Shown piece after piece: positions 9,441 through 55,012 of a stretch of 64,000 nt of DNA. The position numbers and the translations under genes were made by a program. Numbering within the stretch: the first letter of the stretch is position 1; the number at the start of each line of letters is the position of its first letter. The notes beneath the pieces were generated by a model that was given only the letters and a program-made list of their open reading frames with translations, had not been told where the DNA came from and ran no database searches. The stretch comes from a virus: positions 17,219 to 81,218 of the IMG/VR virus record IMGVR_UViG_3300042485_001041. One strand, given 5' to 3'.

Positions 9441-9475
9441 TCTGTTAAGATAATCGGACTACTACAAGGAGCACA

Positions 9476-10299: not shown

Positions 10300-10316
10300 C
10301 CACATAAACTAGGGGT

Positions 10317-11255
10317 ATGAATCGCCCTGACGGATTAGACCAGATAGTCGGCCCAGTAGTCGTACAGGGTTCTGCTACCTCTTACTTCTCATCCCCAGAA
10401 TCTGGGCTTGATCCAAAGTTATTTACTGGCACTACCTTAAATGGTTGGGTGCGTAATGGTTTGCTACAACTGCTATTTGGTTTCCTAGGCGAAGAATACC
10501 GTCACTCAGATATTTGGGCAAAGGTATGGATCGCTGGTTCTGGCGTATCCTACCAATGGTCTGCTGCTCGTGAGCCAGGAGACTTAGATGTTCTAATTGG
10601 CGTTGACTACATTCAATTCCGCAAAGCACATCCAGAGTATTCAGGTCTAACTGATCTTGAAATTAGCAAGATGCTTAATGAAGATTTCCGCGAGCACTTA
10701 CAACCAGAGACAAAGAACTGGAACGGTTACGAAGTAACTTTCTATGTTAATCCTGGCGCTACAGATATTAGATCAATCAAACCATACGCTGCCTATGACT
10801 TGACTCATAGCGAGTGGACTGTCTTCCCTGAAAGATTTGGCGCTCCACATAACGCTGTATGGGAAGAGATGGCAATCAGAGATCGCACTAATGCGATGGA
10901 TATTGTTGCTCGTTACTCAAAAGCGATGACAGATGTACGTGGAGCACAGAACGATCCAGCACGCCGTAACGCAGAGTCACGGCTACAACAGGCGCTGATG
11001 CAGGGTCATATGTTGTTTGATGACCTTCACGCAGCACGTCGCTTAGCATTTAGTTCTACAGGGCAGGGTTACTCTGACTTCTATAACTACCGCTGGCAAG
11101 CAGGTAAGAAGTATGGAACTGTACCTGCTCTTCGTCAGATGCACGAGTACTGGCAAGCATCTAAGAAAAAAGAAGCAGATGAAACTTACGGTATTGAACT
11201 ACCAGATACCAACACCTTGATTCGTAGAGCAGCAACGTATAGGGCAAAAGGATGA
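10317..11255 (+). CDS. Pol-beta-superfamily nucleotidyltransferase-like protein
   Basis: hhAGS-x11-GDLDV motif followed by a helical C-terminal domain. Confidence 0.7.
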   Translation: MNRPDGLDQIVGPVVVQGSATSYFSSPESGLDPKLFTGTTLNGWVRNGLLQLLFGFLGEEYRHSDIWAKVWIAGSGVSYQWSAAREPGDLDVLIGVDYIQFRKAHPEYSGLTDLEISKMLNEDFREHLQPETKNWNGYEVTFYVNPGATDIRSIKPYAAYDLTHSEWTVFPERFGAPHNAVWEEMAIRDRTNAMDIVARYSKAMTDVRGAQNDPARRNAESRLQQALMQGHMLFDDLHAARRLAFSSTGQGYSDFYNYRWQAGKKYGTVPALRQMHEYWQASKKKEADETYGIELPDTNTLIRRAATYRAKG

Positions 11256-11776
11256 GTCAAGATTACGTAGGTCAACACTCTGCGCCAGATCCTGAATTTG
11301 GTGCTCCGATGCACGATGTCACTGCTAATGGTATGTACCCAAAAGATTTTTATGAAAAATCTCATCACTATGTTAGCGGTGCTGAAACAGGTTCACACGA
11401 ATCAATGAGCGCAGTTCGTGCTGTTAAAGGTAAACGGCACGCTTATGTAACTGTGTATCGTGCTGTGCCTCACGGAGTAAAAGGCGCAAAGATTAATGAA
11501 GGAGACTGGGTTACTCCCTCAAGAGAGTACGCCAAAGAACATGGTCGCTCTAACTTAAATAGCAAATATAGAATTATTAGTGTTAAAGCAAAAGCAGGAC
11601 ATCTTTGGAACGATGCTAACTCTATAAACGAATGGGGCTATCATCCATCGGCTCATATAGAGCCTCGTACCCCCGAAGAGAATGCAAAAAGACAAGCAGA
11701 CTTTGCAGCCCTTAACGAACGTTTGCAATCTAGAAAGGCTCATTTACAAGCCTTTGAAGAAGGAGCAGGAAGATGA
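11252..11776 (+). CDS. Putative ADP-ribosyltransferase-fold protein
   Basis: VTVYRAVP...GDWVTPSREYAKEHG...NEWGY pattern (R, S/T, E). Confidence 0.55.
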   Translation: MSQDYVGQHSAPDPEFGAPMHDVTANGMYPKDFYEKSHHYVSGAETGSHESMSAVRAVKGKRHAYVTVYRAVPHGVKGAKINEGDWVTPSREYAKEHGRSNLNSKYRIISVKAKAGHLWNDANSINEWGYHPSAHIEPRTPEENAKRQADFAALNERLQSRKAHLQAFEEGAGR

Positions 11777-12225
11777 GCGCACGTAATTTATCTTTGGCAC
11801 AGCACCTTGCTGCTGGTCAACTACCTATGTTTATGACAGGTAAAGAGATACAGACTCATTTACATCCCTTTCATGGTGATCGTGAAGGGGTGGCCACAGA
11901 CAAGCCAGATCCAGAAGAATGGGGTGGCAAAGAACTTCGACCAGAAACTAATAAAGAAGTGTGGGAAAGAAAGTACGACGAGTCAGTAACTAATGCTGAC
12001 ATGGGTGGCGCAGAGCACGGTGATAAGTACAGTAACTTGGCACAGGATATAGCCCATGAAGGTTTTAAATCCCCCCGTATTCCTGTAAACCTAGACAGAC
12101 AAGAGGTATTGGGTGGTCATCATAGAGTTGCAGTTGGGGCTGAAGAGCACCCTAACCATCTTTTTCCAGTAGTACATTATGACAACATACACGAAGCAAG
12201 GCATCAATTAAAAGAGCACTATTAA
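11773..12225 (+). CDS. ParB/Srx-like protein
   Basis: IxxEG..P...VLGGHHRVA; leader MSARNLS. Confidence 0.65.
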   Translation: MSARNLSLAQHLAAGQLPMFMTGKEIQTHLHPFHGDREGVATDKPDPEEWGGKELRPETNKEVWERKYDESVTNADMGGAEHGDKYSNLAQDIAHEGFKSPRIPVNLDRQEVLGGHHRVAVGAEEHPNHLFPVVHYDNIHEARHQLKEHY

Positions 12226-29252: not shown

Positions 29253-29292
29253 TTTCTTTCCATTCCAGTAATGATTAATTGAATACATCGAG

Positions 29293-30829: not shown

Positions 30830-30922
30830 TTAATCGCACGCACGCAAGTGCCGAGCCAGGTGTCAGACACGGTTGACGACTTTTACGCTGAGGCAGTGCG
30901 GATTTTAAGCCATAATCGCCAT

Positions 30923-31531
30923 ATGCCCGCTCACAGCGTCTGCCGCACCTGCGGAAAGAAGATTAAGCAAGAAGGCTCCACTTGGAGTTCTCATTTGGGC
31001 GATAAGTGCTGGGGCAAGGGCACCCACAACCCCGTTCACACCGTTATCTCAGAAGGCTTAAAATCGGCCCCAGTATCAGTTCCTAGTCGTTTGCTTAATG
31101 AAACCTTGTTTCGTGGGTTGCCAGGTACTAAGTTGGAGACTCCACTTGGAATGCACTGGTCATCTGTATCGGGGCTTGACCACGTTTCTGGTTATTCGGG
31201 AGGAATAGGTAGTGGCGCTAGTCTATTTTCTGGCGGAGAAGGTAAAAAGGGCGAGAAGTCAACTATCATTCACGCTAAGGTAAACAACCGAGCAATCATC
31301 AACCCTCGCTCATCAGAGGGTAAGAAGATGGCTGGTCGTCATCAAATTTGGGGCGGAGGAGCCCCTGAGTACGAAGAGACGGTTCGCCCTGGTGCAAACG
31401 TTGAAGTAACTAAGTTAACTCGTGTACGTAACGTTACCGATGCCTCTCATGACGAATCTGGTAAGTACACTCCAGCGGTAACAAAGCAACGAGAGATCCG
31501 TTACAAGAAACCAAGACAGGTACAAGCATAA
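30923..31531 (+). CDS. ADP-ribosyltransferase-like protein with N-terminal Zn finger (start re-assigned)
   Basis: CRTCG...H..C; LFRG...GMHWSS...EYEETV; CATAAT 6 nt before ATG. Confidence 0.65.
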   Translation: MPAHSVCRTCGKKIKQEGSTWSSHLGDKCWGKGTHNPVHTVISEGLKSAPVSVPSRLLNETLFRGLPGTKLETPLGMHWSSVSGLDHVSGYSGGIGSGASLFSGGEGKKGEKSTIIHAKVNNRAIINPRSSEGKKMAGRHQIWGGGAPEYEETVRPGANVEVTKLTRVRNVTDASHDESGKYTPAVTKQREIRYKKPRQVQA

Positions 31532-31953
31532 TGGCCGCTCAAGACAACCTTTCAGAAGCCTTGTTCACCGTGCCTCTGCATCGTGGGGTAAAGAGCACCT
31601 CTACCCTTAGTAACCCTGTAGGAATCCACTGGACAGACGTACCTAAAGTTGCAGAGAAGTTTGCAAGGGCAAAGGTCATGTATCCCAATGAACGAGGTTC
31701 TGGAAGAGTCATCCATGGCAAAGTTAACGAAAAAGCCATTGTTGATAAAAAGTCTAAAGAAGGTCGCACATTACGTAAACTTCATGGAATTGAGCCCTAC
31801 GAGAACGAACATGAGAATACCGTAAGACCAGGAGCCACTGTACTTGTTACAGGGTCTACTCGCATAACCCACACAGTTGATCCCAAGGGCAAAGAGAAGA
31901 TAGAACGCCGTAGAGAACGACGTTATAACCCACCACGACAGGTGCGTGCATAA
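31531..31953 (+). CDS. ADP-ribosyltransferase-like protein, NLS leader
   Basis: LHRG...GIHWT....A.KFA...EHENTV. Confidence 0.65.
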   Translation: MAAQDNLSEALFTVPLHRGVKSTSTLSNPVGIHWTDVPKVAEKFARAKVMYPNERGSGRVIHGKVNEKAIVDKKSKEGRTLRKLHGIEPYENEHENTVRPGATVLVTGSTRITHTVDPKGKEKIERRRERRYNPPRQVRA

Positions 31954-32384
31954 TGGCTGCCTCAGACAACCTATCTCCTAAACAGTTCAACAGGCCTCTA
32001 GTACGCCCTGCTGAGATGGCAGACCCAGATATGCGGCCAGGAGCAAAGAACTACCCTCGTAAGAAATTTAACGTACATGCAGAGATGGGTAAGTCATGGA
32101 AGGCCGTGACACCACCTAATTCCTTTGACATGAAGACAGGTGCTCCGCTACCTGTACAGCCAGGCGCTATCTCTATCGTCACACCTGAAAACGGAGATGC
32201 ATGGACTAATTGGCCTGAACATACTGACCCAGACAAAATTCGCATGGCTAAGAAGTTAGTTAAGAACAACTTGACTCGTGAAGCCCAGAAGAGCAGAGAC
32301 CCAAAGGTTCGTATGCAATCACGTCAAGCCTCTTACAAGGCTAACCAGATTCAATCTGCTATTCAGAATCGTACAAATAAATAA
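31953..32384 (+). CDS. Hypothetical protein, NLSxxQF leader
   Basis: MAASDNLSPKQF. Confidence 0.7.
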   Translation: MAASDNLSPKQFNRPLVRPAEMADPDMRPGAKNYPRKKFNVHAEMGKSWKAVTPPNSFDMKTGAPLPVQPGAISIVTPENGDAWTNWPEHTDPDKIRMAKKLVKNNLTREAQKSRDPKVRMQSRQASYKANQIQSAIQNRTNK

Positions 32385-32863
32385 TGGCTGCCTCAGACCA
32401 CCTAGGACCTCAGTGGAGTCAACCTGAACTAACTTTTCAAGTACACCGTGGACTTACTCGTAAGCCTCAAAAGGGTAGATGGCTAGGTATGCACTGGTCA
32501 GCAGATCCAGCGGTAGCAAGAAGGTTTGCTGGGCCGTTTGGCCACGTTGTACATGGTGAGGTACCAATGAGTTCTGTTGAGACAGATACTGGCACTCTAA
32601 GAAGTGAGCGCGTTATTGACGATTCTAAAGTTAAAGAGCCATACAAACAAGAGAAAGAAGTGTCAGTTACGGTTGGCAAGCCTGTAAAGGTCACTGGCGT
32701 AACTGGTCCTGAAGCAGATAAAGAGACAGGTAACTGGAACGGAGTGCGTCGCACTACTCCCAACTCAAATACCGCAACTACGGCTGAGTGGCAAGAAGCC
32801 ATGAAGAATAAGCGTCCAGCAAGAAAGCGCACCTATAAAAAGCCAAGAGAGATGACAGCCTAA
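32384..32863 (+). CDS. ADP-ribosyltransferase-like protein, leader variant
   Basis: MAASDHLGPQW; VHRG...GMHWSAD..VARRFA...EKEV. Confidence 0.65.
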   Translation: MAASDHLGPQWSQPELTFQVHRGLTRKPQKGRWLGMHWSADPAVARRFAGPFGHVVHGEVPMSSVETDTGTLRSERVIDDSKVKEPYKQEKEVSVTVGKPVKVTGVTGPEADKETGNWNGVRRTTPNSNTATTAEWQEAMKNKRPARKRTYKKPREMTA

Positions 32864-33237
32864 TGGCCGCTGAAGATAACTTAAGCAATGCCCAGTGGCA
32901 TCAGTTGGAGATGTACAAAACAGCCAAGGACTTGTATGGGCACAGACTCTCTGATGTAGAGGTGGAACATGACCGTCTTAAAAACGATGAAGGCATAGAC
33001 CCTGAAGAACACGATGTAGATGTTAAAGGTTGGGTTATGGATCGTAAATTATCCGAAAGCAAAAGAAGCGGCCTGTACAGCAATATCAAAAGTCGTGGAG
33101 TTACAGATCCTGTAAGTTTAGGTCAAGGTCGTTGGGGCGTGTATAAACGAGGTGTCGTAAGTGATGGACACCACCGCATTGCTGCCGCAAACGATATTGA
33201 CCCTAATATGTTAGTTCCAGTAGAGCATCAGAAATAG
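32863..33237 (+). CDS. ParB/Srx-like protein, NLS leader
   Basis: IKSRGVTDPV...VSDGHHRIAAA...VPV. Confidence 0.72.
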   Translation: MAAEDNLSNAQWHQLEMYKTAKDLYGHRLSDVEVEHDRLKNDEGIDPEEHDVDVKGWVMDRKLSESKRSGLYSNIKSRGVTDPVSLGQGRWGVYKRGVVSDGHHRIAAANDIDPNMLVPVEHQK

Positions 33238-33304
33238 GCCTTACCTCCCCTAACTAATATTTTTTTATTCAGTAAAAGTAAGGCAGTAGCCTTATCCTTA
33301 CCAT

Positions 33305-33547
33305 ATGGAAAAAGACCCTAAAGAGTTGTGGGCAGACTCCATGGCTAGACAAGATATGACCCAGATGTGGCATAACCACTCTCAGTCTAAAGGGGATAAA
33401 GAGCATAAAGGCATTCCCGCCTCCACCTGTCCAGCCTGTTTTGAGAACGACCCAGTAACAGTTGAACACTCTTACGAGTCTGACCGTGAAGCGGCAAGAG
33501 GCCACTTGACTTCCCAACAATTTGATAAGATGTTTGGACACCTATGA
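33305..33547 (+). CDS. Hypothetical protein (H..H..CPAC)
   Basis: TATCCT 6 nt before ATG. Confidence 0.65.
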   Translation: MEKDPKELWADSMARQDMTQMWHNHSQSKGDKEHKGIPASTCPACFENDPVTVEHSYESDREAARGHLTSQQFDKMFGHL

Positions 33548-33780
33548 GCCAAGAGAACTTAAGCCAAGAGCAATTCAAGGTATATGACTTTGAGGCCGCT
33601 AAGAATATGAAGAAGAGCACTGGTCGTGCCGTTGCTTGGCAGAAGGACAATGACGAGTATCACCCAGATACCAAGAAGCATGATGATGAGGCTCTGGCTA
33701 TCCACGATGAGCCAGCCAAGCCAGATAACATGGCAGTTAAAGCCGCCAAGTTCATTGGCCTGATGGACCCAATCGGCTAA
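33544..33780 (+). CDS. Hypothetical protein, NLSxxQF leader
   Basis: MSQENLSQEQF. Confidence 0.7.
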   Translation: MSQENLSQEQFKVYDFEAAKNMKKSTGRAVAWQKDNDEYHPDTKKHDDEALAIHDEPAKPDNMAVKAAKFIGLMDPIG

Positions 33781-34203
33781 ATGGTTGCTTCAGATAACCT
33801 ATCTCCCAAACAGTTCAACCGTTTGAGCATGGGCGCCCCTATTGTAAAAAATTTAGGTATTGTCGCTCACGATCCTAAAGAAGACGATACTGAAGAAGGT
33901 TTTAATCGTACAGAGGCTATGTACGCTAATAAAGAGCACCATAATCCAGGTGACATGTGGGACATGCCTTCCTCAGAAGAGTTACATACAACTCAAAGCG
34001 TTTTAAACAAATCTACGATTAGACACTTTGTAGATAACCCTAATAACCCTGAAGAGTGGAAAGATGGCGAAGGCTACAACGCTCCAGAGGTTTACACTCA
34101 CCAGGGTAAGTTGTGGGTTCACGAAGGCCACCATCGCCTTATCGCCTCTCGTTTAAGGGGAGACTCAAGTACAAAAGTTCATCACTGGGATACTGGTCAG
34201 TAA
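33781..34203 (+). CDS. ParB/Srx-like protein, NLSxxQF leader
   Basis: LHTTQ...PEV....GKLWVHEGHHRLIA. Confidence 0.72.
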   Translation: MVASDNLSPKQFNRLSMGAPIVKNLGIVAHDPKEDDTEEGFNRTEAMYANKEHHNPGDMWDMPSSEELHTTQSVLNKSTIRHFVDNPNNPEEWKDGEGYNAPEVYTHQGKLWVHEGHHRLIASRLRGDSSTKVHHWDTGQ

Positions 34204-34670
34204 TGGCTGAGTTTCACTCAGAATGGGGCCACGGCTATCAACCAGCCCCACCTACCAATTTAAACCTTAAGCAGTTTGCTCCACACATTCGCTACGAAGT
34301 TCCACAGGCAGATAAGCCATTTGGCAATGCGGCAACTAACTTTGGCCTACATACTGCTGGCGTAGAACTGACAACCCAGGCACCAGACTCAGATAAGCCA
34401 TCTGAGACCCTTGGACACCTCCATTGGCATGCAACACGAGGTGAGATACTAGATGTCCACGTTGTTCCAGGCGCACGACGTAAGGGCGTTGCTACAGCGT
34501 TACTTGCTGCTGCAAAAGATGTTGCAGCAAAAACAGGTGTGCCAGCGCCAGTTCACTCAAAAGATAGAAGTGACATGGGTGATAAGTGGGCAAAATCAGT
34601 CGGCGGCGAAATGCCAGAGCGTTTAAAGATCGGTGGAATACAAGATTTTGAGGGTATTCTTAAAAAATAA
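34203..34670 (+). CDS. GNAT-family acetyltransferase (start re-assigned to MAEF)
   Basis: EILDVHVVPGARRKGVATALL motif A; NLNLKQF near the N-terminus. Confidence 0.8.
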   Translation: MAEFHSEWGHGYQPAPPTNLNLKQFAPHIRYEVPQADKPFGNAATNFGLHTAGVELTTQAPDSDKPSETLGHLHWHATRGEILDVHVVPGARRKGVATALLAAAKDVAAKTGVPAPVHSKDRSDMGDKWAKSVGGEMPERLKIGGIQDFEGILKK

Positions 34671-34691
34671 ACGGTAAAACCATGTGGTAAT

Positions 34692-35120
34692 GTGCGCGAT
34701 GTGCCAAGACCTAATACACCAGAAGGTAAAGAGAAGAAGCGCGAAGACCAAAAACGCTATTATCAGCGTAATAAAAGCAGTTACATAGCCAAAAACAAGG
34801 TAAAAAGGGCTGAAATCAAGGATTTTCTTCGAAAATACAAGGAATTTAAGGGTTGCGGCGACTGTAGCGGCAAATTTCCCTTCTATATTTTAGATTTTGA
34901 CCATCGCGACCCCGCTATGAAGCGATTTAGCCCCGCGAAGATGGCACATAACAATAGTTGGACAGCCATGGTTGAAGAAATTGCCAAGTGTGATGTACTC
35001 TGTGCTAATTGTCATCGAGAACGCACATATAAGGATGGCCATCGCTTCTTAGGTCAGAAAAATACTAAGAAAGTCTTTACTGAGAAAAAGAAACGGAGCA
35101 CAAGTGAGAACAATTGCTGA
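34692..35120 (+). CDS. HNH endonuclease
   Basis: CGDC...LDFDH...EIAKCDVLCANCHR. Confidence 0.85.
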   Translation: MRDVPRPNTPEGKEKKREDQKRYYQRNKSSYIAKNKVKRAEIKDFLRKYKEFKGCGDCSGKFPFYILDFDHRDPAMKRFSPAKMAHNNSWTAMVEEIAKCDVLCANCHRERTYKDGHRFLGQKNTKKVFTEKKKRSTSENNC

Positions 35121-35286
35121 GATAATCGCAAGAATCAAGAGTGAAGATAGAGAGTTGATGGATCGTTTTGCTGGCCAAAGCGCCGTTGCTTATCTAGAAG
35201 GCTTAACTTGTAAGGATGGCTGTCACCCATGTGACAAATGCCAAAGCATATTCGAAGCAATCGAAATAATAGGGAGAATCAAATGA
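35104..35286 (+). CDS. Small Cys-rich protein
   Basis: C...C..CDKC; operonic. Confidence 0.55.
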   Translation: MRTIAEIIARIKSEDRELMDRFAGQSAVAYLEGLTCKDGCHPCDKCQSIFEAIEIIGRIK

Positions 35287-35423
35287 GAGACTTTTCAAAA
35301 CTACCAATCATCGTTGTAGATGATGACTTCTTTGAGTATGTAGCAGAGATGGGTCATAGCGACGAAATTACTTATGAGGATTATGTACTGCTCTGTCAAG
35401 AGTGGTTAGCAGATAACACGTGA
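35283..35423 (+). CDS. Small acidic protein (start MRDFS)
   Basis: ATGA overlap; RBS GGGAG. Confidence 0.55.
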   Translation: MRDFSKLPIIVVDDDFFEYVAEMGHSDEITYEDYVLLCQEWLADNT

Positions 35424-35427
35424 GCCG

Positions 35428-35640
35428 ATGATGTGGTCATGGGTATTAGCGGCAATCGGCGTTACAGGTATCTTTCTTGTAGGTCGAAAAACTATATGGG
35501 GTTGGTTAGTCTTATTCCTTAACGAAGTTCTTTGGACTATCTATGCCGTAACCACAGAGCAGTACGGCTTTATCTTTGCCGCTATCGCATACGGAATTGT
35601 TTATGTTAGATCATTTCTACATTGGAGAAGCACCGAGTGA
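35428..35640 (+). CDS. Small 3-TM membrane protein (PnuC-fragment-like)
   Basis: WSWVLAAIG...WGW...NE.LW..YA. Confidence 0.65.
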   Translation: MMWSWVLAAIGVTGIFLVGRKTIWGWLVLFLNEVLWTIYAVTTEQYGFIFAAIAYGIVYVRSFLHWRSTE

Positions 35641-36191
35641 GTCATATAGTAGAACTGGCTAAAGAAGAAGTTCGTGCCTGCGCTGATATCGCCCTAAACC
35701 GATGGATGATGAAGTGGGGATCAATAGATCGCCCTAACTACGCAGGCGATAACAAGAAGAACATGGAGCCTGAAATTGCGGCCAATGTTCGAAGCATCGT
35801 TGCTGAGTACGCCGTAGCCAAGTTATACAAGAAGGCATTCACCTTTCCCTTCTATACAAATGAAGAGCACCACTTCCGTAAAGACATCGCAGATGTTGGC
35901 CAGAACATTGAGGTCAAGAGCATCCGCACAAGAGATGAGATACCTGTCTTTCCTAAAGACCTACGAGATGACTGGATACTAGTTGGGGCCTTCGTGACCG
36001 ACCGTGATTACTACTCAACCGTCAAGGTATATGGCTGGATGCACATGTCAGATGTACCTGAGAAAGCCAAATGGTCTGTAGAGCGCGATTACAATGGAAA
36101 AATTTTGCGCGAGTGTTGGCGGGTTCCAGAAGAAGCCTTTGAACAGGGTTTGTTAATCCCTACAAATTCAGGAGTTAGCCTTACAATTTAA
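35637..36191 (+). CDS. Hypothetical protein, possible PD-(D/E)xK fold
   Basis: AEYAVA...DV...IEVKS. Confidence 0.55.
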   Translation: MSHIVELAKEEVRACADIALNRWMMKWGSIDRPNYAGDNKKNMEPEIAANVRSIVAEYAVAKLYKKAFTFPFYTNEEHHFRKDIADVGQNIEVKSIRTRDEIPVFPKDLRDDWILVGAFVTDRDYYSTVKVYGWMHMSDVPEKAKWSVERDYNGKILRECWRVPEEAFEQGLLIPTNSGVSLTI

Positions 36192-36194
36192 GGC

Positions 36195-36698
36195 ATGATG
36201 AAGCGCCCACCTAAAGATTTAGGTCAAGCATTGAAGGCTGGCTATCAGCCTATGTTTATGACTGGTGGCGAAGTTAAGAAGCACTTTGCTCCTTATAAGC
36301 AAGATCGTCAATACAAACCAGGCGGAGTCAAAGAAACTGATCAAGAGTTGTGGGATCGCAAGTTAACTGAATCAAAACAAACTGGTGAACAAAGATATGG
36401 CAAAGATGCTTTTGAAAGAGATAGCCGAGGTGCATGGCGCAGTTTGTCTGGCCCTGATTTAGTTCGTCGAGGAATTGGTGCAAAGACTTCTCTAGAGTCA
36501 GTTGCTCAGAGTAAAGGCATGCCTGGTGGCGCACTTCACTTACAAGATAACAATTTAGGTTCTCCATCTGGAAAACCACAGGTACTAGGTGGCCATCACC
36601 GTGTCGCCTTATCTGCCGCACAATTTCCAGAACATTTATTTCCAATTAAATATGCGCCACACATCGATGCCGCTAGAAGCGAACCAGGTTACCGATGA
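36195..36698 (+). CDS. ParB/Srx-like protein
   Basis: PMFMTG...VLGGHHRVA...HLFPI; closest to 11773-12225. Confidence 0.68.
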   Translation: MMKRPPKDLGQALKAGYQPMFMTGGEVKKHFAPYKQDRQYKPGGVKETDQELWDRKLTESKQTGEQRYGKDAFERDSRGAWRSLSGPDLVRRGIGAKTSLESVAQSKGMPGGALHLQDNNLGSPSGKPQVLGGHHRVALSAAQFPEHLFPIKYAPHIDAARSEPGYR

Positions 36699-36976
36699 AA
36701 GAATACTCACTAGGCGGATTTGCGGGAAAGATCTCCGAAAAGGTTAGCCCATACACAAAAACACGAGTAAGTGTCTATCACTCAGAGCAAGCAGGCTTTG
36801 ATCACTCAGATGGTCAGCGTTATACAACAATCTGCGAAGATCACGGCAACCTTGTCTCCACTCGCTCACAAGGTGCGGCAAAGTCTGCAGCGGTTAACCC
36901 AATTGACTGGTGTGAAGATTGTCAAGAAAAAGGTAAGACACTAACTGATCACTTCAACGATGGAGCGGCTAAGTAA
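36695..36976 (+). CDS. Hypothetical Zn-binding protein
   Basis: CEDHG...WCEDC. Confidence 0.65.
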   Translation: MKEYSLGGFAGKISEKVSPYTKTRVSVYHSEQAGFDHSDGQRYTTICEDHGNLVSTRSQGAAKSAAVNPIDWCEDCQEKGKTLTDHFNDGAAK

Positions 36977-37347
36977 TGAGCGCATCAGACCACTTAAACC
37001 CTAGTCAGTTTAATACTTACTACCATGCTACTGATGAGCACTCGGCAGAGTCTATTAAAAAAACAGGTCTTCGCAACGGCACCTACATGACTCCTCATCT
37101 AGATGTCGCTAATGATTATGGGACTCACATATTCAAAGTACATGTGCCAAAGAGCCATACCTTTGCAAGCAGTCCAGATCATTATTACGAGAGTGACTTC
37201 ATTCCTAGAGAACACCAAGGCTATGTAACTGAAGAGCACCCTAATTCAGCAGACCGTGTGCACATGGAATCTAGCAAGTTAAAAATAGAAGGCCCAAAGA
37301 GTATGGAAGAGTGGCTCGGTAACAAAAGTGGAAACTGGCGTGCATGA
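36976..37347 (+). CDS. H-Y-type ADP-ribosyltransferase-fold protein, leader variant
   Basis: MSASDHLNPSQF; YHAT....SIKKTGL...YMT....A..YG. Confidence 0.6.
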   Translation: MSASDHLNPSQFNTYYHATDEHSAESIKKTGLRNGTYMTPHLDVANDYGTHIFKVHVPKSHTFASSPDHYYESDFIPREHQGYVTEEHPNSADRVHMESSKLKIEGPKSMEEWLGNKSGNWRA

Positions 37348-37556
37348 GCCGTAAAGATAACTTTGAAGCAGCACATGTTGCTGCTCGTGAGATTGCTCCA
37401 GGTGACTACCTTGATGCATCAATGAAGTTACGTGTACATGCAGCCAAAATGATTGGCAATGACTTTGTTGTAGCCCATAAGTTACGTGGCTCTAAGGCAC
37501 CTGGCGTATCTATGTATAAGCCAGATGAGAAAGTTAGAGTGTGGCGTAAGAAATGA
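37344..37556 (+). CDS. Hypothetical protein
   Basis: ATGA coupling. Confidence 0.6.
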   Translation: MSRKDNFEAAHVAAREIAPGDYLDASMKLRVHAAKMIGNDFVVAHKLRGSKAPGVSMYKPDEKVRVWRKK

Positions 37557-37879
37557 GCGCTGAAGATAATCTTTCGTATGAACAACTTGCTATGTTCATG
37601 ACTCCTAAAGAAATTAAATCTAAATATGATGTTTCTGAGGGCGAGTACTCCGATGACGAACATGAGCCTAATCAGTTATACGCACGTAAGCGTCGTGAGG
37701 CTAAGAAAAGCGGTTTGTTTAAGAAAATAAGAAAAGAAGGCGTTCAAATTCCAGTTCAACTTTCTTCAGCAGATAAAACTATTGCAGATGGACATCACAG
37801 AGTTGCATCAGAACGAGACAACCGCTTAATGCCAGTAGAGCATTTAGAGCCTGAAGAGATCTGGTGGCGGAATAGATGA
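37553..37879 (+). CDS. ParB/Srx-like protein, NLS leader
   Basis: IRKEGVQIPV...IADGHHRVA...MPV. Confidence 0.72.
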   Translation: MSAEDNLSYEQLAMFMTPKEIKSKYDVSEGEYSDDEHEPNQLYARKRREAKKSGLFKKIRKEGVQIPVQLSSADKTIADGHHRVASERDNRLMPVEHLEPEEIWWRNR

Positions 37880-38001
37880 ACAACATATCCGCTACGCAAT
37901 TTGGCGCTCAAATAATGCCAAAAGAAACGTATGTCAATGTAGCGATGCAGATGACGCCTCCATCAGAGGCCTCTAACACAGCAAGTAGTACAAAAGCATG
38001 A
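37876..38001 (+). CDS. 41-aa peptide with NISxxQF leader (not in ORF track)
   Basis: Own translation MNNISATQFGAQIMPKE...; ATGA coupling. Confidence 0.55.
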   Translation: MNNISATQFGAQIMPKETYVNVAMQMTPPSEASNTASSTKA

Positions 38002-38457: not shown

Positions 38458-39201
38458 ATGGCCGATAAAGGAACAGCAGCAGCAATCATTGAAATTGCTA
38501 AGAAGGAAGTGGGCACTATTGAGGGCCCTAAAGATAACCAGACAAAATATGGCGCATTTACAAAAGCCAACTTTCTTCCATGGTGCGGAAGTTTCGTTAA
38601 CTGGTGTGCTAACCAAGCAGGCGTAAAGGTACCTAACACTGTCTCTACCGTGTCAGGCGCTGCCGCATTTAAGAAGATGAAGACTTGGTTTGAGGCTGAC
38701 TGCGGTCAATCTCCACAACCTGGCGATATCCTGTATTTTGATTTCCCAGGAGACGGCGTCGATAGAATTTCTCACGTAGGTATCTGCTCAGGTATTGACT
38801 CAGATGGCGTTGTGACCGCTATCGAGGGCAATACATCTTCTAGCAAAAAGGGAAGCCAAAGAAATGGCGGAGAAGTCTGCATCCAGACTCGTGCCTACAA
38901 AGCAAACAAAAAGAAGATTTCAGTCTCAATCGTAGGTTGGGGCCGTCCTAACTACGTTGGCAACGAAGTCGAAGCCGAGATTCCAGCATCTGATACCCCA
39001 GCCTTCCCAGGCAAGATTAAGCCAGGGGATACAGGCGAAGGCGTAAAGATTGTTCAGAAGGCTCTAGGCCTAAAGGCTGATGGAGAATACGGCGCAGCGA
39101 CAAAAGCCGCAGTTGCCGCATTTCAGGACAATCACGACATGTTGGACTCAAATGGCGTTGTTGGCCCTAAAACTTGGGCACAATTGATCAAATTCCTCTA
39201 A
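38458..39201 (+). CDS. Endolysin: CHAP amidase plus peptidoglycan-binding domain
   Basis: PWCGSFV, PGDI, SHVGI, IEGN; C-terminal VQKALG...DG..G..T...FQ...GVVGPKTW. Confidence 0.92.
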   Translation: MADKGTAAAIIEIAKKEVGTIEGPKDNQTKYGAFTKANFLPWCGSFVNWCANQAGVKVPNTVSTVSGAAAFKKMKTWFEADCGQSPQPGDILYFDFPGDGVDRISHVGICSGIDSDGVVTAIEGNTSSSKKGSQRNGGEVCIQTRAYKANKKKISVSIVGWGRPNYVGNEVEAEIPASDTPAFPGKIKPGDTGEGVKIVQKALGLKADGEYGAATKAAVAAFQDNHDMLDSNGVVGPKTWAQLIKFL

Positions 39202-39248: not shown

Positions 39249-39797
39249 ATGACAACTATTGTAGGAGTGCAATATAAGGACCGCTGTGTTCTGGCGGCCG
39301 ATAACCAGGTAACTGGTGACGGCGGTCGTAGATACAACCATCCAGAGATGAAGAAGATCTCTCAACGTGGTGCGTTCTTAATCGCAGGTAGTGGTGAAGT
39401 AATGCCTTGCGATGTTGTCCAGCATATGTGGGTTCCGCCAAAACTTACGGCAAAAGATGGCGAAGACATTTACCACTTCATGATTACCAAAGCAATGCCT
39501 TCTCTCAGAAAATGCTTAACTGATAACGGTTATGACTTCAATGAGGGTAAGGGAGATGGAAAAGCGGAAGAAAACCGCTTTAGTTTCATCCTTGCTGTTG
39601 GTGGAGAACTATTTGATGTAGCCGATGATCTATCAGTCATTCGGTCAGGAGATGGGATCTACGGAGTAGGTTCTGGGTCTTCTTATGCAGTTGGTGCGTT
39701 ACACGCTGGAGCAAAGCCCTCTGAGGCTATTGAGATTGCCTCAAGGCTAGATGTCAATACTTCTGGGCCAATTCAGGTAGTGGAGCAACTTAAGTAA
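39249..39797 (+). CDS. HslV/proteasome-beta-like Ntn peptidase
   Basis: N-terminal MTTI, LAAD, K, GSGS..A.GAL, D.NT. Confidence 0.85.
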   Translation: MTTIVGVQYKDRCVLAADNQVTGDGGRRYNHPEMKKISQRGAFLIAGSGEVMPCDVVQHMWVPPKLTAKDGEDIYHFMITKAMPSLRKCLTDNGYDFNEGKGDGKAEENRFSFILAVGGELFDVADDLSVIRSGDGIYGVGSGSSYAVGALHAGAKPSEAIEIASRLDVNTSGPIQVVEQLK

Positions 39798-40733: not shown

Positions 40734-40741
40734 GTGTCTTG

Positions 40742-40901: not shown

Positions 40902-41066
40902 ATGTTATCTGAGCCACAATTTAAGGAAAAGGCTAGTATCGAACTAAACGGTGCGATGCCTATGGACTCTAAGTTTGATGGCCCTTCATCTCCTAAAGCA
41001 AACAAACAAGATGGAGTGATGGTAGCGAATAAAGACCTGATGCTTGCTAAGCCAGGGTTCTTTTAA
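40902..41066 (+). CDS. 54-aa peptide with LSxxQF leader (not in ORF track)
   Basis: Own translation MLSEPQFKEKASIE...; TAATG coupling to next gene. Confidence 0.55.
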   Translation: MLSEPQFKEKASIELNGAMPMDSKFDGPSSPKANKQDGVMVANKDLMLAKPGFF

Positions 41067-50503: not shown

Positions 50504-50899
50504 ATGACAATTTCACCAGCACCACAATTCCCAGAGCGTTCACCTCAGAACTACGAAATGAAGGGTGCCGACAACGCTACTCGTCGTGGACCACTTCGCT
50601 TTGAAGAAGGTATCGCTACAGATACAGACGTTCCAGCAGATTTCCAGAAGGGCATGATGCAGGGTTCTGCAGTTGCTCCAGGACGCCCAAACCGTAATGC
50701 CCCAGTATGGCAAAAGACTGCAGCAGAAACTCTTGCAGAACGTGCTCATGTTGGTTCAGCATCATGGGTTGAAGCACCAACATTCCTTGGTGAGTTCGCA
50801 CATGGAACAATGAATGACTATTCAGCAGCAAAGATTGAAACAGTTGCTCGCTCAGGCGGACGTACACAACGTATGTCAGCAACAGTCATAAACGACTAA
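50504..50899 (+). CDS. Hypothetical (probable virion) protein
   Basis: RBS AAGGAG; between terminase and portal. Confidence 0.7.
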   Translation: MTISPAPQFPERSPQNYEMKGADNATRRGPLRFEEGIATDTDVPADFQKGMMQGSAVAPGRPNRNAPVWQKTAAETLAERAHVGSASWVEAPTFLGEFAHGTMNDYSAAKIETVARSGGRTQRMSATVIND

Positions 50900-53082: not shown

Positions 53083-53850
53083 ATGGATAATGAACAAGAA
53101 ATTCAGTTAGAAGTTGCGAATCAAGACCTGATTCCAGCAGCGACAGAAGTTTTCCAGAATGAGGTTTCATCTGTGTATACCGCAGACGATATGGCTAAGG
53201 CTCGTGAGCAAGAAAAAGCCAAGTTATACCCTCAGATGGAAAAAATGAAAGAAGAACTTTCGACCTTGAAGAAGGCTCGTGAGGAAGAAGCAGCACGCCA
53301 AGCAGAAGCAAAAGCCAAGCGTGATGCTGAGAAAGCAGAAAAAGAAGCAAAGCGTAAAGCCGATGAGGAAAGTGAAATGTCCCTCAAGGAACTCCTCGCT
53401 AAGAAGGAGCAAGAATTTCAGTCTCAGTTAGATGCTGAACGTCTTGAGAGAGAAAAGGCTTTTGCACTTCTCGATAGAGAACGTCAGTTCCAAGAATTAA
53501 TGAACTATCGTCAAGGCCGACTAGAACAAGAACGTGACAGTATTGTTCCTGAACTAATCGACTTGATTCAAGGTAATTCACAAGAAGAAGTAGAGCAGAG
53601 TATTTCAATGCTTAAAGAGAAATCAGCAAGCATCCTGCAATCTGCGCAAGCAGCAATGCAATCTGCAAAGCAACAAATGGCAGGTACACGTATTACGTCG
53701 CCTGCATCAGGACCCCTCGATAATGATCCGTCACAACAATCGTATACACCCGATTCAATTCGGGACATGTCATTGGCAGACTATGCGAAACAACGCGCCA
53801 AGTTACTTGGCAACGCAGCATCAAATAGAGGCCAGGGTCTTTTCGGTTAA
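53083..53850 (+). CDS. Capsid scaffolding protein
   Basis: Charged coiled coil between portal and capsid; MSLADYAKQR C-terminus. Confidence 0.8.
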   Translation: MDNEQEIQLEVANQDLIPAATEVFQNEVSSVYTADDMAKAREQEKAKLYPQMEKMKEELSTLKKAREEEAARQAEAKAKRDAEKAEKEAKRKADEESEMSLKELLAKKEQEFQSQLDAERLEREKAFALLDRERQFQELMNYRQGRLEQERDSIVPELIDLIQGNSQEEVEQSISMLKEKSASILQSAQAAMQSAKQQMAGTRITSPASGPLDNDPSQQSYTPDSIRDMSLADYAKQRAKLLGNAASNRGQGLFG

Positions 53851-53884
53851 AACCCTCAACCAACTAAAGAAAGGACTGCCCTAA

Positions 53885-55012
53885 ATGGCGTCTGCAATTA
53901 CAGGCACTGGCCAACTCGCTGGTGCACCTACAGCCTACTCAGGCTCGAACTCAAGCCTTAACCAGGCTATTCAAACAATCTGGTCAAAAGAAATTTTGTT
54001 CCAGGCAATGCCAATCCTTCGTTTCGAACAGTTCGCAGTTAAGAAGACTGAACTAGGAGTTGCTCCTGGTCTTCGCGTTAACTTCCTTCGTTACAAGAAC
54101 TTTGCTGTTGATCCGTCACCTCTTACAGAAGGTGTACGTATGACAACAAACGCTCTAACAGCAGAACAGATTGCAATCACAGTTGCTGAACACGGCTACG
54201 CAGTAGCAGTTTCAGAACTACTTTTGAATGCATCATTCGACGATGTTATGGCATCTGCCTCACGTCTTCTAGGTCGCCACATGGCACAATACCTAGATGT
54301 ACAGGCTCGCAACACACTATCAGCAGCAACATCAGCAGTGTTCGGTTACGACCGTACAGGCGTACAAGGTGTTAATGACTGGTACAACGAAGGTACAGCA
54401 GCAACACAGATCTCAGACCTAGATGGTAACTTCAAGTTGTCAACTGGTGCTGTAAAGGATGCTGCTCTTACTCTTGCTGGCAAGAACATCCCTCGCTTAG
54501 GTGAGACATACGTACAATTCGTACACCCAAAGCAGTCACGTGACATTCGTTCGAACCCAGAGTTCATCGAAGTTACAAAGTACGCTGCTCCAGGTAACTT
54601 CATGCTAGGTGAAATCGGTCGTCTATACGACGTAGTATTCATCGAAACAACACAGGTTAAGAAGTTGGCAGTTAACGCTGCATACACAACTTCAACATCT
54701 GTTGGTGTTCCAGCAGATCAATACAGCATTCCTGTTAAGGCTAACACAGCCCCAGGTAATGGTGGAAACCCAGAGTCTGCAGATTTCACTGCAGAAAAGG
54801 GTTACCTAACAACAGCAACTGGTAACGGTGCTGAAGTTTACGAATCAATCATGATTGGTGACAATGCATTTGGTCACGCAATCTCTCTCCCAGTTGAACT
54901 TCGCGATGGTGGCGTTCTTGACTTCGGTCGTGAGCACGCTCTTGCTTGGTACGCAATTTGGGGTCTAGGCGTAATCACAGATCAAGCAATTGTGAAGGTT
55001 TACACCAACTAA
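53885..55012 (+). CDS. Major capsid protein (N4-gp56-like)
   Basis: LTEG, EHG, VHP, GEIG..Y.V.F.ET, DFGR....AWY motifs. Confidence 0.92.
   Translation: MASAITGTGQLAGAPTAYSGSNSSLNQAIQTIWSKEILFQAMPILRFEQFAVKKTELGVAPGLRVNFLRYKNFAVDPSPLTEGVRMTTNALTAEQIAITVAEHGYAVAVSELLLNASFDDVMASASRLLGRHMAQYLDVQARNTLSAATSAVFGYDRTGVQGVNDWYNEGTAATQISDLDGNFKLSTGAVKDAALTLAGKNIPRLGETYVQFVHPKQSRDIRSNPEFIEVTKYAAPGNFMLGEIGRLYDVVFIETTQVKKLAVNAAYTTSTSVGVPADQYSIPVKANTAPGNGGNPESADFTAEKGYLTTATGNGAEVYESIMIGDNAFGHAISLPVELRDGGVLDFGREHALAWYAIWGLGVITDQAIVKVYTN

What the first reader, a model, noticed from the sequence alone, without database searches (positions are those of the whole stretch)
30923..38001. About 16 unrelated small proteins share an N-terminal (D)NLSxxQF leader: candidate capsid-loading/injection tag for an effector library
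Seen, leaders in this block: 31531 MAAQDNLSEALF, 31953 MAASDNLSPKQF, 32384 MAASDHLGPQW, 32863 MAAEDNLSNAQW, 33544 MSQENLSQEQF, 33781 MVASDNLSPKQF, 34203 ..TNLNLKQF, 36976 MSASDHLNPSQF, 37553 MSAEDNLSYEQL, 37876 MNNISATQF. Elsewhere in the window: 5182 MLSQPQF, 5950 MAGGPNNLSASQNW, 7925 MFGNLSSPQF, 9267 MSNLSSNQF, 11773 MSARNLSLAQ, 40902 MLSEPQF. The sequences after the leader are unrelated: ART-like, ParB/Srx-like, GNAT and disordered peptides. The 31953 and 33781 leaders differ by three synonymous third-position changes, which points to selection on the peptide. I saw no such leader in the leftward early block or in core replication/structural genes. Established: T4 internal proteins share a ~10-aa capsid-targeting sequence, and phage polyvalent proteins combine ART, ParB, GNAT and NTase domains and are thought to be co-delivered with DNA. 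Inference: this is a polyvalent protein split into stand-alone domains, each addressed to the procapsid by a short portable tag.
Basis: partly seen in the sequence, partly recalled or inferred. Interest (0 to 1): 0.92.

Follow-up and report, generated by a model that had tools for sequence, protein, structure and literature searches.

The report
Shared N-terminal tag on phage effectors
A lake-water phage of actinobacteria and its relatives put the same 7-12-residue N-terminal peptide, (D)NLSxxQF, on more than 20 unrelated small enzymes and peptides. In other phages the same enzyme domains are fused into giant 'polyvalent' proteins that lack the peptide, so it is most likely a portable address tag, possibly for loading proteins into the virion.

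Summary
In the window the strict motif N[LI][SN]xxQ[FWL] sits 2-6 residues after the start codon of 7 genes, against 0.003 expected. Looser forms bring the count to about 16.

A back-translated pattern found 44 IMG/VR contigs, against 2 for a reversed-order control. It found only chance-level hits in 596 Gb of prokaryote genomes. These contigs yield 131 non-redundant leader proteins in about 25 cargo clusters.

Leu, Ser, Asn and Gln codons vary freely, so selection is on the peptide. AlphaFold gives the leader low confidence in two different cargo models, consistent with a flexible N-terminal extension.

The cargo assignments hold: ADP-ribosyltransferase (ART) fold, ParB/Srx fold and GNAT. The same four main cargo families occur as repeated domains in giant 700-3700-aa polyvalent proteins. 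Two of those lie just after a phage large-terminase gene, and none carries the leader.

Leader cassettes form a fast-evolving hotspot beside conserved nuclease-like, endolysin and HslV-peptidase genes. This is the pattern of T4 internal proteins and their capsid-targeting sequence, but in an unrelated phage lineage (N4-gp56-type capsid).

Capsid loading is inferred, not shown (about 45%). "Unrelated" is overstated, because several window cargos are paralogues. I found no earlier description. The scan flagged the same motif from an overlapping window of this genome.

The parts
30848..31531 (+). ART-like paralogue without the leader. It has a Cys-rich N-terminal extension.
   Evidence: Aligns with the ART family A1 from the RG motif onward. 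HMM hit with iE 2e-20.
31531..31953 (+). Leader MAAQDNLSEALF followed by an R-S-E-type ADP-ribosyltransferase-like domain with a basic C-tail (RRYNPPRQVRA).
   Evidence: AF2 mean pLDDT 85.4, with residues 1-10 at 53. VIA Z 7.3 to Rhs toxin TreX and 6-7 to pertussis S1 and PltA; the top rows of the list are almost all ARTs. R18 is invariant and E93/E95 nearly invariant.
31953..32384 (+). Leader MAASDNLSPKQF followed by a basic 143-aa cargo of unknown fold.
   Evidence: No Pfam, PHROG or Atlas hit.
32384..32863 (+). Variant leader MAASDHLGPQWSQPELTF followed by an ART-like domain.
   Evidence: The same variant (DNLGRQWxQPELSF) recurs in many database representatives.
32863..33237 (+). Leader MAAEDNLSNAQW followed by a ParB/Srx-like domain (DGHHR motif).
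   Evidence: AF2 mean pLDDT 83.5, with leader residues 1-14 below 50. Foldseek matches KorB, Noc, ParB and sulfiredoxin at prob 1.0, rmsd 2.3 A, over about 55-65 residues.
33544..33780 (+). Leader MSQENLSQEQF followed by an acidic 78-aa cargo.
   Evidence: Homologue at 78% identity in G003.
33781..34203 (+). Leader MVASDNLSPKQF followed by a ParB/Srx-like domain (EGHHR).
   Evidence: Alignment A2. Cluster 10.
34203..34670 (+). GNAT acetyltransferase. The motif TNLNLKQF lies at 34254-34277, 17 residues inside the ORF.
   Evidence: Pfam PF00583, 28.1 bits against a cut-off of 20.7. Relatives carry the leader at the N-terminus (cluster 3).
35622..36191 (+). Conserved leaderless gene inside the hotspot. 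PD-(D/E)xK-like, judged from a D..ExK motif read by eye.
   Evidence: Present in 29 of 44 loci at a median 63% identity. No Pfam hit.
36195..36698 (+). ParB/Srx-like paralogue that lacks the leader.
   Evidence: Alignment A2, GGHHR motif.
36976..37347 (+). Leader MSASDHLNPSQF followed by a YYHAT... cargo. An H-type ART is suspected but was not tested.
   Evidence: cluster 11. Homologue MSASDNLSAGQFRTYYHGT in L043.
37344..37556 (+). Homologue of leader proteins whose leader has decayed (MSRKDNFEAAH).
   Evidence: Cluster 13 HMM, iE 7e-37. Relatives start MSAEDNLSKPQF or MSNLNHKQF.
37553..37879 (+). Leader MSAEDNLSYEQL followed by a ParB/Srx-like domain.
   Evidence: Alignment A2.
37876..38001 (+). 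Leader-like MNNISATQF followed by a conserved 41-aa peptide (...MPKETYVNVAMQMTPPSEASNTASSTKA).
   Evidence: Homologues in 14 loci at about 78% identity, with canonical leaders.
5182..5430 (+). Minimal leader MLSQPQF followed by a basic, Q-rich 82-aa protein.
   Evidence: 62% identical homologue in G003.
5950..6483 (+). Loose leader MAGGPNNLSASQNW followed by a Gly-rich 177-aa protein. The BRock homologue gp48 has no leader.
7925..8074 (+). Short-form leader MFGNLSSPQF followed by a basic disordered 49-aa peptide (pI 11.3).
9267..9440 (+). Short-form leader MSNLSSNQF followed by a basic 57-aa peptide (pI 10.9).
10317..11776 (+). Two leaderless genes (10317-11255 and 11252-11776) whose domains also occur inside the giant polyvalent proteins.
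   Evidence: tblastn to the giant genes in L090 and L091, E 1e-22 to 1e-24. BRock gp39 and giant P0005 share the first domain.
11773..12225 (+). Degenerate leader MSARNLSLAQH followed by a ParB/Srx-like domain.
   Evidence: Alignment A2. HMM iE 1.5e-12.
40902..41066 (+). Possible minimal-leader ORF (MLSEPQF). It overlaps minus-strand ORFs, so its coding status is uncertain.
38458..39201 (+). Endolysin. Conserved downstream flank of the hotspot.
   Evidence: PHROG endolysin families, E 2e-23. Present in 31 of 44 loci at a median 74% identity.
39249..39797 (+). HslV-family (Ntn/proteasome-like) peptidase, the only peptidase I identified among the proteins searched. Candidate leader-processing enzyme (speculative).
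   Evidence: phrog_1040, E 7e-29, and Pfam Proteasome. Present in 26 of 44 loci and absent from BRock.
50504..50899 (+). Core head-module protein between terminase and portal, with a leader-like N-terminus (MTISPAPQF).
   Evidence: The L015 homologue starts MTDNLAPAPQF; BRock gp155 has DLAPAPQV.
53083..55012 (+). Scaffold-like coiled-coil protein (53083-53850) and N4-gp56-family major capsid protein (53885-55012). Candidate receptors for the tag.
   Evidence: No canonical prohead protease was found between portal and capsid genes.

Best explanation
The (D)NLSxxQF leader is a portable address peptide under purifying selection. It is fused to the N-terminus of stand-alone versions of the enzyme domains that other actinobacterial phages string together in giant polyvalent proteins (R-S-E ART, Arr-like ART, ParB/Srx, GNAT), and also to small basic or disordered peptides.

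Most likely it works like the T4 capsid-targeting sequence. The exposed, flexible leader would bind an abundant procapsid component (scaffold or the inner face of the capsid protein) during head assembly. A variable cocktail of effectors would then be packaged and injected with the DNA, to modify host targets or block defences before any phage gene is expressed.

Shown:
- the leader exists, is strictly N-terminal and is conserved at the peptide level;
- it has low-confidence (probably flexible) models, is found almost only in phage sequence among the collections searched, and sits on about 25 cargo clusters in a fast-evolving hotspot;
- the same domains occur without it in giant phage proteins encoded next to the terminase gene.

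Inferred: binding to the procapsid, packaging, possible cleavage after the terminal F/W/L, and injection.
For: Distribution and selection:
- Strong enrichment at N-termini.
- 44 IMG/VR loci against 2 for a reversed-order control.
- Only chance-level hits in 596 Gb of prokaryote genomes, and 0 of 401 Actinomycetota genomes hold the ART family.
- Synonymous codon diversity at the leader positions.
- Leader residues L7, N6 and S8 are as conserved as catalytic residues in families with 26-30% mean identity.
- The leader has pLDDT of about 50 in two different fold models.

Cargo and hotspot:
- The cargos are effector-type enzymes.
- In the hotspot the cargos are 35-40% identical, between flanks that are 63-74% identical.

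Complementary distribution:
- Of 103 small representatives, 52 carry the canonical leader and most others a variant. None of 47 giants and none of 135 domain copies has it.
- The giants also contain the other main cargo families.

Gene context:
- A giant gene starts about 400 nt after the large terminase gene in phage contigs L090 and L091.
- In the relative L015, leader genes lie between terminase and portal. In L014, a leader-ART overlaps the start of a head-module gene.

Precedent:
- The T4 CTS is 10-19 residues, T4 internal proteins co-purify with scaffold gp22, and the ART Alt is packaged (PMC9026906).
- Phage polyvalent proteins, and solo versions of their domains encoded beside late genes, are predicted to be packaged (PMC5512222).
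Against: - There are no virion proteomics, and no binding or cleavage data.
- Timing of expression is unknown. The main cassette lies directly after the divergent ORF-free region, where early genes might be expected, and the second group (5182-12225) lies among replication and nucleotide-metabolism genes.
- No canonical prohead protease was detected.
- Some stand-alone polyvalent-type domains in the window lack the leader (10317, 11252, 36195, 30848), so the tag is not obligatory for these families.
- All leader-bearing contigs with structural genes share one virion type, so the link to the capsid cannot be separated from common descent.
- BRock, with a 62% identical capsid protein, has no leader proteins.
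Confidence: 0.45

Rival explanations
1. The leader is a short linear docking motif for a partner outside the virion. That partner could be a host hub (for example RNA polymerase, ribosome or nucleoid protein) or one phage-encoded chaperone or immunity factor. All effectors would then be concentrated on, or controlled by, one site after ordinary intracellular expression.
For: - The motif is short, flexible, exposed and invariant across phages whose structural proteins differ (scaffold 33%, portal 55% identity in high-GC relatives).
- The cassette sits right after the divergent regulatory region, where host-takeover genes often lie.
- The leader reads as a helix N-cap with hydrophobic staple (L-S-x-x-Q-F). 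This is a compact, recognisable knob (inference from helix-capping rules).
Against: - No host protein with this N-terminus was found in 596 Gb of genomes, so it does not mimic a common host signal.
- It does not fit the SLiMs I know (beta-clamp QLxLF, PIP box, SSB tail; from memory).
- It is unclear why disordered 40-60-aa basic peptides would need the same docking site.
- The absence of the leader from the fused giants is explained less naturally.
Confidence: 0.22
2. The leader is a propeptide or degron read by the conserved neighbouring HslV-family peptidase, possibly with a host unfoldase. It would either limit the lifetime of toxic effectors or activate them by cleavage after the terminal aromatic or Leu residue. 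This could act alone or as the processing step of capsid loading.
For: - The HslV-family peptidase (39249-39797) is conserved next to the hotspot in 26 loci, and is absent from BRock, which also lacks leaders.
- The last leader position is F, L or W (122, 6 and 3 of 131 leaders), a chymotrypsin-like P1 set. HslV is known to prefer hydrophobic P1 residues (from memory).
- No other protease was identified among the window proteins I searched.
Against: - The co-occurrence is synteny within one clade, not an independent association.
- HslV-family genes occur in cultured phages (phrog_1040) whose proteins showed no leader-cargo families.
- HslV normally needs HslU, and none was seen.
- The motif does not resemble any N-degron I know (from memory).
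Confidence: 0.12
3. The conserved N-terminus serves expression rather than address. It would give efficient re-initiation or early elongation for tightly coupled genes (TAATG overlaps), or act as a nascent-peptide effect.
For: - Most leader genes start at a stop/start overlap without a clear Shine-Dalgarno sequence.
- Stand-alone genes need their own initiation, whereas domains in giants do not.
Against: - Conservation is at the amino-acid level. Five Leu codons from both codon families, TCN and AGC Ser codons, and both Asn and Gln codons are used.
- Many other coupled genes in the same operons lack the motif.
- A specific N-L-S-x-x-Q-F peptide is not a known expression enhancer.
Confidence: 0.07
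4. The leader has no present function. It would be a remnant of one ancestral gene start that spread by cassette recombination.
For: - Cassettes are mosaic.
- Some paralogues have lost or degraded the leader (36195, 11773, 37344), which shows it can decay.
Against: - It is nearly invariant in more than 130 proteins whose cargos are 26-40% identical or unrelated.
- It is retained in contigs from 39% to 60% GC with recoded codons.
- A neutral 7-residue relic would not survive this divergence.
Confidence: 0.04

Closest known systems
T4-type internal proteins (Ip1-3, Alt and many Ips of T-even phages) with their N-terminal capsid-targeting sequence (CTS)
   Same: - A short (10-19 aa) N-terminal peptide is the only thing shared by otherwise non-homologous small proteins.
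- The genes sit in a hypervariable hotspot.
- The cargo includes an ADP-ribosyltransferase (Alt), small basic proteins and anti-defence proteins.
- The tag is portable to foreign cargo (PMC9026906, PMC12373910).
   Different: - The phage lineage is unrelated: N4-gp56-family capsid, BRock-like myovirus relatives, an actinobacterial lake host.
- The sequence differs: T4 IPIII's CTS, as I recall it, has no NLSxxQF.
- No gp21-type prohead protease was detected, and there is no Glu cleavage site.
- There are far more cargo families (about 25), most of them enzymes.
- Packaging is not demonstrated here.
Polyvalent proteins of phages and conjugative elements (Iyer, Burroughs, Anand, de Souza, Aravind 2017; PMC5512222)
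   Same: - The domain repertoire is the same: ART, ParB, GNAT, NUDIX.
- The window's cargo families are found as repeated domains in giant 700-3700-aa proteins.
- Two of those giants are in phage contigs right after the terminase gene.
- Solo versions next to polyvalent genes were already noted in that paper.
   Different: - Here each domain is a separate gene with its own short N-terminal leader, and the giants lack that leader.
- The phrase 'N-terminal motif' does not occur in that paper and none of the passages I read mentions a shared leader.
- Pfam ART-PolyVal does not match the window proteins.
MuF-fused polymorphic toxins, the P1 Dar proteins and N4 virion RNA polymerase (other packaged phage effectors)
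   Same: Enzymes or toxins are carried in the capsid and delivered with the DNA. The address is provided by a fused module or an N-terminal region (PMC5512222 for MuF, DdrB and N4; the DarB N-terminal signal is from memory).
   Different: In those cases the address is a whole domain or a long region, not a 7-12-residue peptide reused on dozens of cargos.
Encapsulin cargo-loading peptides and microcompartment encapsulation peptides
   Same: Short terminal peptides dock diverse enzymes to the inner face of a protein shell. For encapsulins the shell has the HK97 fold (from memory).
   Different: These are cellular nanocompartments, the peptides are usually C-terminal or amphipathic helices, and they show no sequence similarity to this leader.

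Membership tests
T4-type CTS-bearing internal proteins | A short N-terminal peptide shared by otherwise non-homologous small proteins | tested here: met
   About 25 BLAST-level cargo clusters share only the leader. In alignment A3 only N6, L7 and F12 are conserved.
T4-type CTS-bearing internal proteins | Genes clustered in a hypervariable locus between conserved genes | tested here: met
   Cargos are 35-40% identical, against 63-74% for flanking genes, across 44 loci.
T4-type CTS-bearing internal proteins | Proteins present inside the virion and injected | not testable with these tools
   There is no cultured relative and no proteomics.
T4-type CTS-bearing internal proteins | Leader removed by the prohead protease at a consensus site | tested here: inconclusive
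   No gp21, U9 or U35-type protease was detected near the portal, scaffold and capsid genes. An HslV-family peptidase is present. Cleavage cannot be tested.
T4-type CTS-bearing internal proteins | Homology of phage and leader sequence to T-even phages | tested here: not met
   The capsid protein is of the N4-gp56 family, and the closest cultured relatives are Streptomyces BRock-like phages. The leader consensus MxAxDNLSxxQF differs from the T4 CTS as I recall it.
Polyvalent proteins (Iyer et al. 2017) | Two to 15 effector domains in one polypeptide | tested here: not met
   The window proteins have a single domain and are 41-177 aa long. The giants found in databases do meet this feature.
Polyvalent proteins (Iyer et al. 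2017) | Domains homologous to those of polyvalent proteins | tested here: met
   Profile A1 hits 47 giants, with 135 domain copies. The Arr-like, ParB and GNAT cargo profiles hit 17, 14 and 19 of them. NUDIX and Arr-ms are found in the giants.
ADP-ribosyltransferase, R-S-E clade (31531, 32384, 30848) | ART fold with a catalytic Arg on strand 1 and an ExE motif | tested here: met
   R18 is invariant and E93/E95 are at least 90% conserved. VIA Z 7.3 (rmsd 3.6 A, 103 residues aligned) to TreX, and Z 6-7 to pertussis S1 and PltA. The middle S-T-S motif is not clearly identified, and Pfam is silent.
ParB/Srx (32863, 33781, 37553, 36195, 11773) | ParB N-terminal / sulfiredoxin fold with a GxxR-type (DGHHR) motif | tested here: met
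   G102, H104 and R105 are invariant. Foldseek prob 1.0 to KorB, Noc, ParB and Srx over about 55-65 residues, E 0.01-0.08.
GNAT (34203-34670) | Pfam Acetyltransf_1 above the gathering score | tested here: met
   28.1 bits against a cut-off of 20.7.

The most novel reading that the evidence does not exclude
A phage-wide 'zip code'. One 7-residue helix-cap motif (L-S-x-x-Q-F, usually preceded by D-N) would suffice to load any protein into N4-gp56-type capsids of abundant lake actinophages, so each phage can swap in effectors as plug-and-play cassettes. A co-conserved HslV-family (proteasome-like) peptidase would act as an unconventional head-processing protease that clips the tag after its terminal F/W/L. 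The giant polyvalent proteins of related phages would be the fused alternative solution to the same delivery problem.
Probability: 0.15. Interest if true: 0.9.

Novelty: new variant of a known kind. Interest (0 to 1): 0.78.

Why it matters
If the leader is a loading signal, it is the second natural capsid-targeting tag system after T4's. It arose independently, in a very abundant group of uncultured freshwater phages (thousands of near-identical capsid proteins in public metagenomes).

It would do several things:
- mark, by sequence alone, a large catalogue of injected effectors: over 600 representative clusters for one cargo family, and more than 20 families in all;
- give direct support to the long-standing but untested idea that polyvalent-protein domains are delivered with the DNA;
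- explain why the same domains appear either fused or as tagged singles;
- offer a very short tag for packaging foreign proteins into phage heads.

Even if the address is something else, a 7-residue motif kept invariant on dozens of unrelated proteins points to one unknown receptor that matters to these phages.

Tried and rejected
- Complex prediction. Complex prediction with capsid protein, scaffold and a 36-residue leader alignment gave no verdict: score 0.00, controls not run. It is not evidence either way.
Two relatives were reached through metagenome contigs instead.
- Searches for giants that found nothing: P0005 in viral and metagenome contigs and P0129 in viral contigs. tblastn of P0001 and P0005 against cultured phages gave only partial single-domain hits.
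- Family libraries. Pfam and PHROGs were silent for nearly all leader proteins. The ESM Atlas gave no usable hit for 31953.
- Cultured phages. No match to the block by blastn. BRock, read in full, has no leader.
- RNA. No RNA holder is listed among the sequencing runs, so expression was not tested.
- Promoters. The promoter/terminator consensus scan and a k-mer search of intergenic regions gave no shared promoter motif. Early or late timing remains open.
- Nucleotide-level conservation or a recombination linker: rejected on codon diversity.
- N-glycosylation sequon (N-x-S/T): considered, because NLS fits. It is unlikely, because N varies to H and S to N or G while Q-F stays fixed.
- Beta-clamp, PIP-box and N-degron motifs: compared from memory only, and the spacing does not fit.
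- The Actinomycetota MAG gene MSAQDNLS[RK]AQF (L061, L068). It sits among transposases, and that genome has no match to the ART cargo family (A1). It may be a true outlier or chance.
- Giants' own N-terminal motif ((D)hhxHF or MLEYFTA). 16 of 47 giants share it, but the pattern was defined after looking, and it may only reflect a homologous first domain.

Full report
**What the window is.** The window is bases 17219-81218 of an 81.2-kb viral contig. Four pieces of context place it:
- The major capsid protein (53885-55012) is 60-62% identical to that of Streptomyces myophages of the BRock group. Sources label it N4-gp56 family, and more than 4000 proteins match it, the top 120 at 96-100% identity.
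- Runs holding most of the block are lake-water metagenomes.
- WhiB-like N-termini (read by eye at 708 and 20034-20303) and the BRock kinship point to an actinobacterial host.
- The map runs as follows: a minus-strand block (16.5-29.3 kb); an ORF-free divergent region; then on the + strand the leader cassette (30.8-38.0 kb), endolysin, an HslV-family peptidase, terminase, portal, scaffold, capsid and tail genes. A second set of short-form leader genes lies at 5.2-12.2 kb among replication and nucleotide-metabolism genes.

- A six-frame scan shows that matches to [NH][LI][SGN]xxQ[FWL] are almost all 1-6 codons after the first start codon of + strand ORFs.
- The strict motif is N-terminal in 7 of 139 called genes. 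Shuffled proteins give 0.003, and the N-terminal against internal contrast has Fisher p = 6e-9.
- Most leader genes begin with an ATG that overlaps the preceding stop codon, so the starts are not in doubt.
- Exceptions: the motif is internal in the GNAT gene, 17 residues in. Three forms are loose (5950, 11773, 32384). 40902 may not be a gene.

**It is a clade-wide feature, and found almost only in phage sequence.**
- Back-translating M-x-A-x-D-N-L-S-x-x-Q-F and scanning IMG/VR gave 44 loci. Of 46 matches, 44 are ORF starts reading M[SA]A[EQS]DNLSxxQF.
- The same codons in reversed order gave 2 loci.
- The same pattern in 596 Gb of prokaryote genomes gave 28 hits. I estimate about 35 by chance. 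Only one gene, in two copies in an Actinomycetota MAG, looks genuine.
- Each viral locus carries 2-8 leader genes. In all there are 131 non-redundant proteins in about 25 BLAST-level cargo clusters.
- Four of five long contigs have capsid proteins 85-96% identical to the window's. Contigs at 58-60% GC with leader genes share terminase, portal or another head-module gene at 26-56% identity.
- BRock itself has no leader.

**Selection is on the peptide.**
- There are two registers: M-[SA]-A-x-D-N-L-S-x-x-Q-F and M-x-N-L-[SN]-x-x-Q-F.
- Leu is encoded by TTA, CTA, CTT, CTC and TTG; Ser by TCN and AGC; Asn and Gln by both codons.
- The 31953 and 33781 pair differs by three synonymous changes plus Ala-to-Val, as claimed.
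- Within the ART family (mean column identity 30%), L7 is invariant and N6/S8 are at least 90% conserved, like the catalytic Arg. The same holds in the ParB family.
- After QF nothing is conserved.
- The core L-S-x-x-Q-F fits a helix N-cap (capping box) with a hydrophobic staple. This is my inference from established helix-capping rules.

**Cargo identity.**
- 31531 folds with mean pLDDT 85. It matches R-S-E ARTs at moderate Z (7.3 to TreX; 6-7 to pertussis S1 and PltA), and the top rows of the list are almost all ARTs.
- 32863 folds with mean pLDDT 83.5, and its C-terminal half matches ParB, KorB, Noc and sulfiredoxin.
- 34203 is a GNAT by Pfam.
- In both models the leader has pLDDT of about 50, which suggests a flexible extension rather than part of the fold.
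- Several window cargos are paralogues, so 'unrelated' is overstated. Still, at least nine different cargo types occur in the window.

**Link to polyvalent proteins.** A profile of the ART family searched against 1.84 billion representatives gave 601 hits.
- 103 of the best 150 are stand-alone proteins under about 200 aa. Of these, 52 have the canonical leader, and most others have variants such as MSAPLSNELFF or DNLGRQWxQPELSF.
- The other 47 are giants of 700-3700 aa with 2-6 copies of the domain, matched from about profile position 25, which is after the leader. None contains the leader anywhere.
- The same giants contain the Arr-like, ParB-like and GNAT cargo families (17, 14 and 19 of 47), plus NUDIX and Arr-ms. 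This is the polyvalent-protein architecture of PMC5512222.
- Two relatives of one giant lie in 78-kb and 145-kb contigs at 68% GC, with a UvsX-like recombinase, a Holliday-junction resolvase and a Cas4-like exonuclease. In both, the giant gene starts about 400 nt after the large terminase gene.
- These giants also contain domains homologous to the window's leaderless genes 10317-11255 and 11252-11776.
- None of 401 sampled Actinomycetota genomes has the ART family.

**Context that bears on mechanism.**
- The cassette is a hotspot. Cargos are 35-40% identical, between a nuclease-like gene, the endolysin and the HslV-family peptidase, which are 63-74% identical across loci.
- In high-GC relatives, leader genes sit inside the head module: between terminase and portal in L015, and overlapping the start of the homologue of 55600 in L014.
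- The core 131-aa protein encoded between terminase and portal has a leader-like N-terminus (MTISPAPQF; MTDNLAPAPQF in L015).
- No canonical prohead protease was found.

**Interpretation.** The pattern is a short N-terminal peptide as the only shared feature of non-homologous small proteins in a hotspot, with an ART among them. That is the T4 Ip/CTS pattern (PMC9026906, PMC12373910). The complementary distribution of tagged singles and untagged giants suggests that the leader supplies what fusion supplies. The published inference is that fusion supplies co-packaging and co-injection (PMC5512222).

I therefore rank capsid loading first, at about 0.45. It is not demonstrated. Timing is unknown, some solo domains lack the tag, and the association with one virion type cannot be separated from descent. 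The rivals are:
- a docking motif for a non-virion partner (0.22);
- a propeptide or degron for the HslV-like peptidase (0.12, and compatible with loading);
- an expression role (0.07);
- a functionless relic (0.04).

**Novelty.** Searches of the held literature found no description of this leader. The polyvalent-protein paper notes solo domains, but the phrase 'N-terminal motif' is absent from it and none of the passages I read mentions a shared leader. The same scan flagged the motif from an overlapping window of this genome. That is not independent evidence.

Noticed in passing
window 39249-39797 (+): HslV-family (proteasome-like, N-terminal MTTIVGV) peptidase. It is conserved next to the endolysin in 26 related loci and absent from BRock, and no HslU-like partner was seen. 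A phage-borne Ntn peptidase with no obvious role.
   Followed up: partly
window 31531-31953, 32384-32863, 30848-31531 (C-termini): The ART-like family has a second conserved element, a basic C-terminal tail R-x-R-T-Y-x-P-P-R-x-M-K-A (R128, Y132, P135 and R136 nearly invariant). It is kept in stand-alone forms but lies outside the region matched in the giants.
   Followed up: partly
window 37876-38001 (+): A 41-43-aa peptide ending ...MPKE[MT]YVNVAMQMTPPSEASNTASSTKA is about 78-82% identical in 14 loci, far more conserved than its neighbours. Function unknown.
   Followed up: no
window 50504-50899 (+); L015 10715-11116: A core 131-aa head-module protein between terminase and portal has an N-terminus that resembles the leader (MTISPAPQF; MTDNLAPAPQF in L015; DLAPAPQV in BRock gp155). 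It may be an ancestral or related tag, or chance.
   Followed up: partly
proteins P0003, P0004, P0027, P0056, P0076, P0123 and others (giants): 16 of 47 giant polyvalent proteins begin with their own short motif, (D)L(L/V)xHF or MLEYFTA, within the first 30 residues. About 0.05 matches per 30-residue window are seen internally. The pattern was defined post hoc.
   Followed up: partly
L090 10001-17143; L091 9929-15238: Giant polyvalent genes (2380 and 1769 aa, 68% GC) lie directly after the large terminase gene in phage contigs. They fuse domains that in the window are the separate genes 10317-11255, 11252-11776, the GNAT and the ART.
   Followed up: partly
window 53885-55012 (+): The capsid protein is labelled N4-gp56 family by sources. 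More than 4000 database proteins match it, and the top 120 are 96-100% identical, so this phage group is very abundant in public lake metagenomes.
   Followed up: no
window 35622-36191 (+): A leaderless 189-aa protein with a D..ExK motif (PD-(D/E)xK-like, by eye) is the most conserved gene inside the hotspot: 29 loci at a median 63% identity.
   Followed up: no
window 29289-29936: A region of about 650 nt with no long ORF lies at the divergence point of the leftward and rightward gene blocks. Another reader noted it as a possible structured RNA. I did not test it.
   Followed up: no
window 40551-40745 (-): A small Cys-rich protein (MTRHMPKYEYACIECD..., zinc-ribbon-like by eye) is encoded on the minus strand within the otherwise rightward block. 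It is conserved in 15 loci at 76% identity.
   Followed up: no
L061 5665-6144; L068 3055-3534: An Actinomycetota MAG (67% GC) carries two copies of a 159-aa ORF starting MSAQDNLS[RK]AQF among transposase genes. It is the only cell-genome hit that looks like a real leader.
   Followed up: partly
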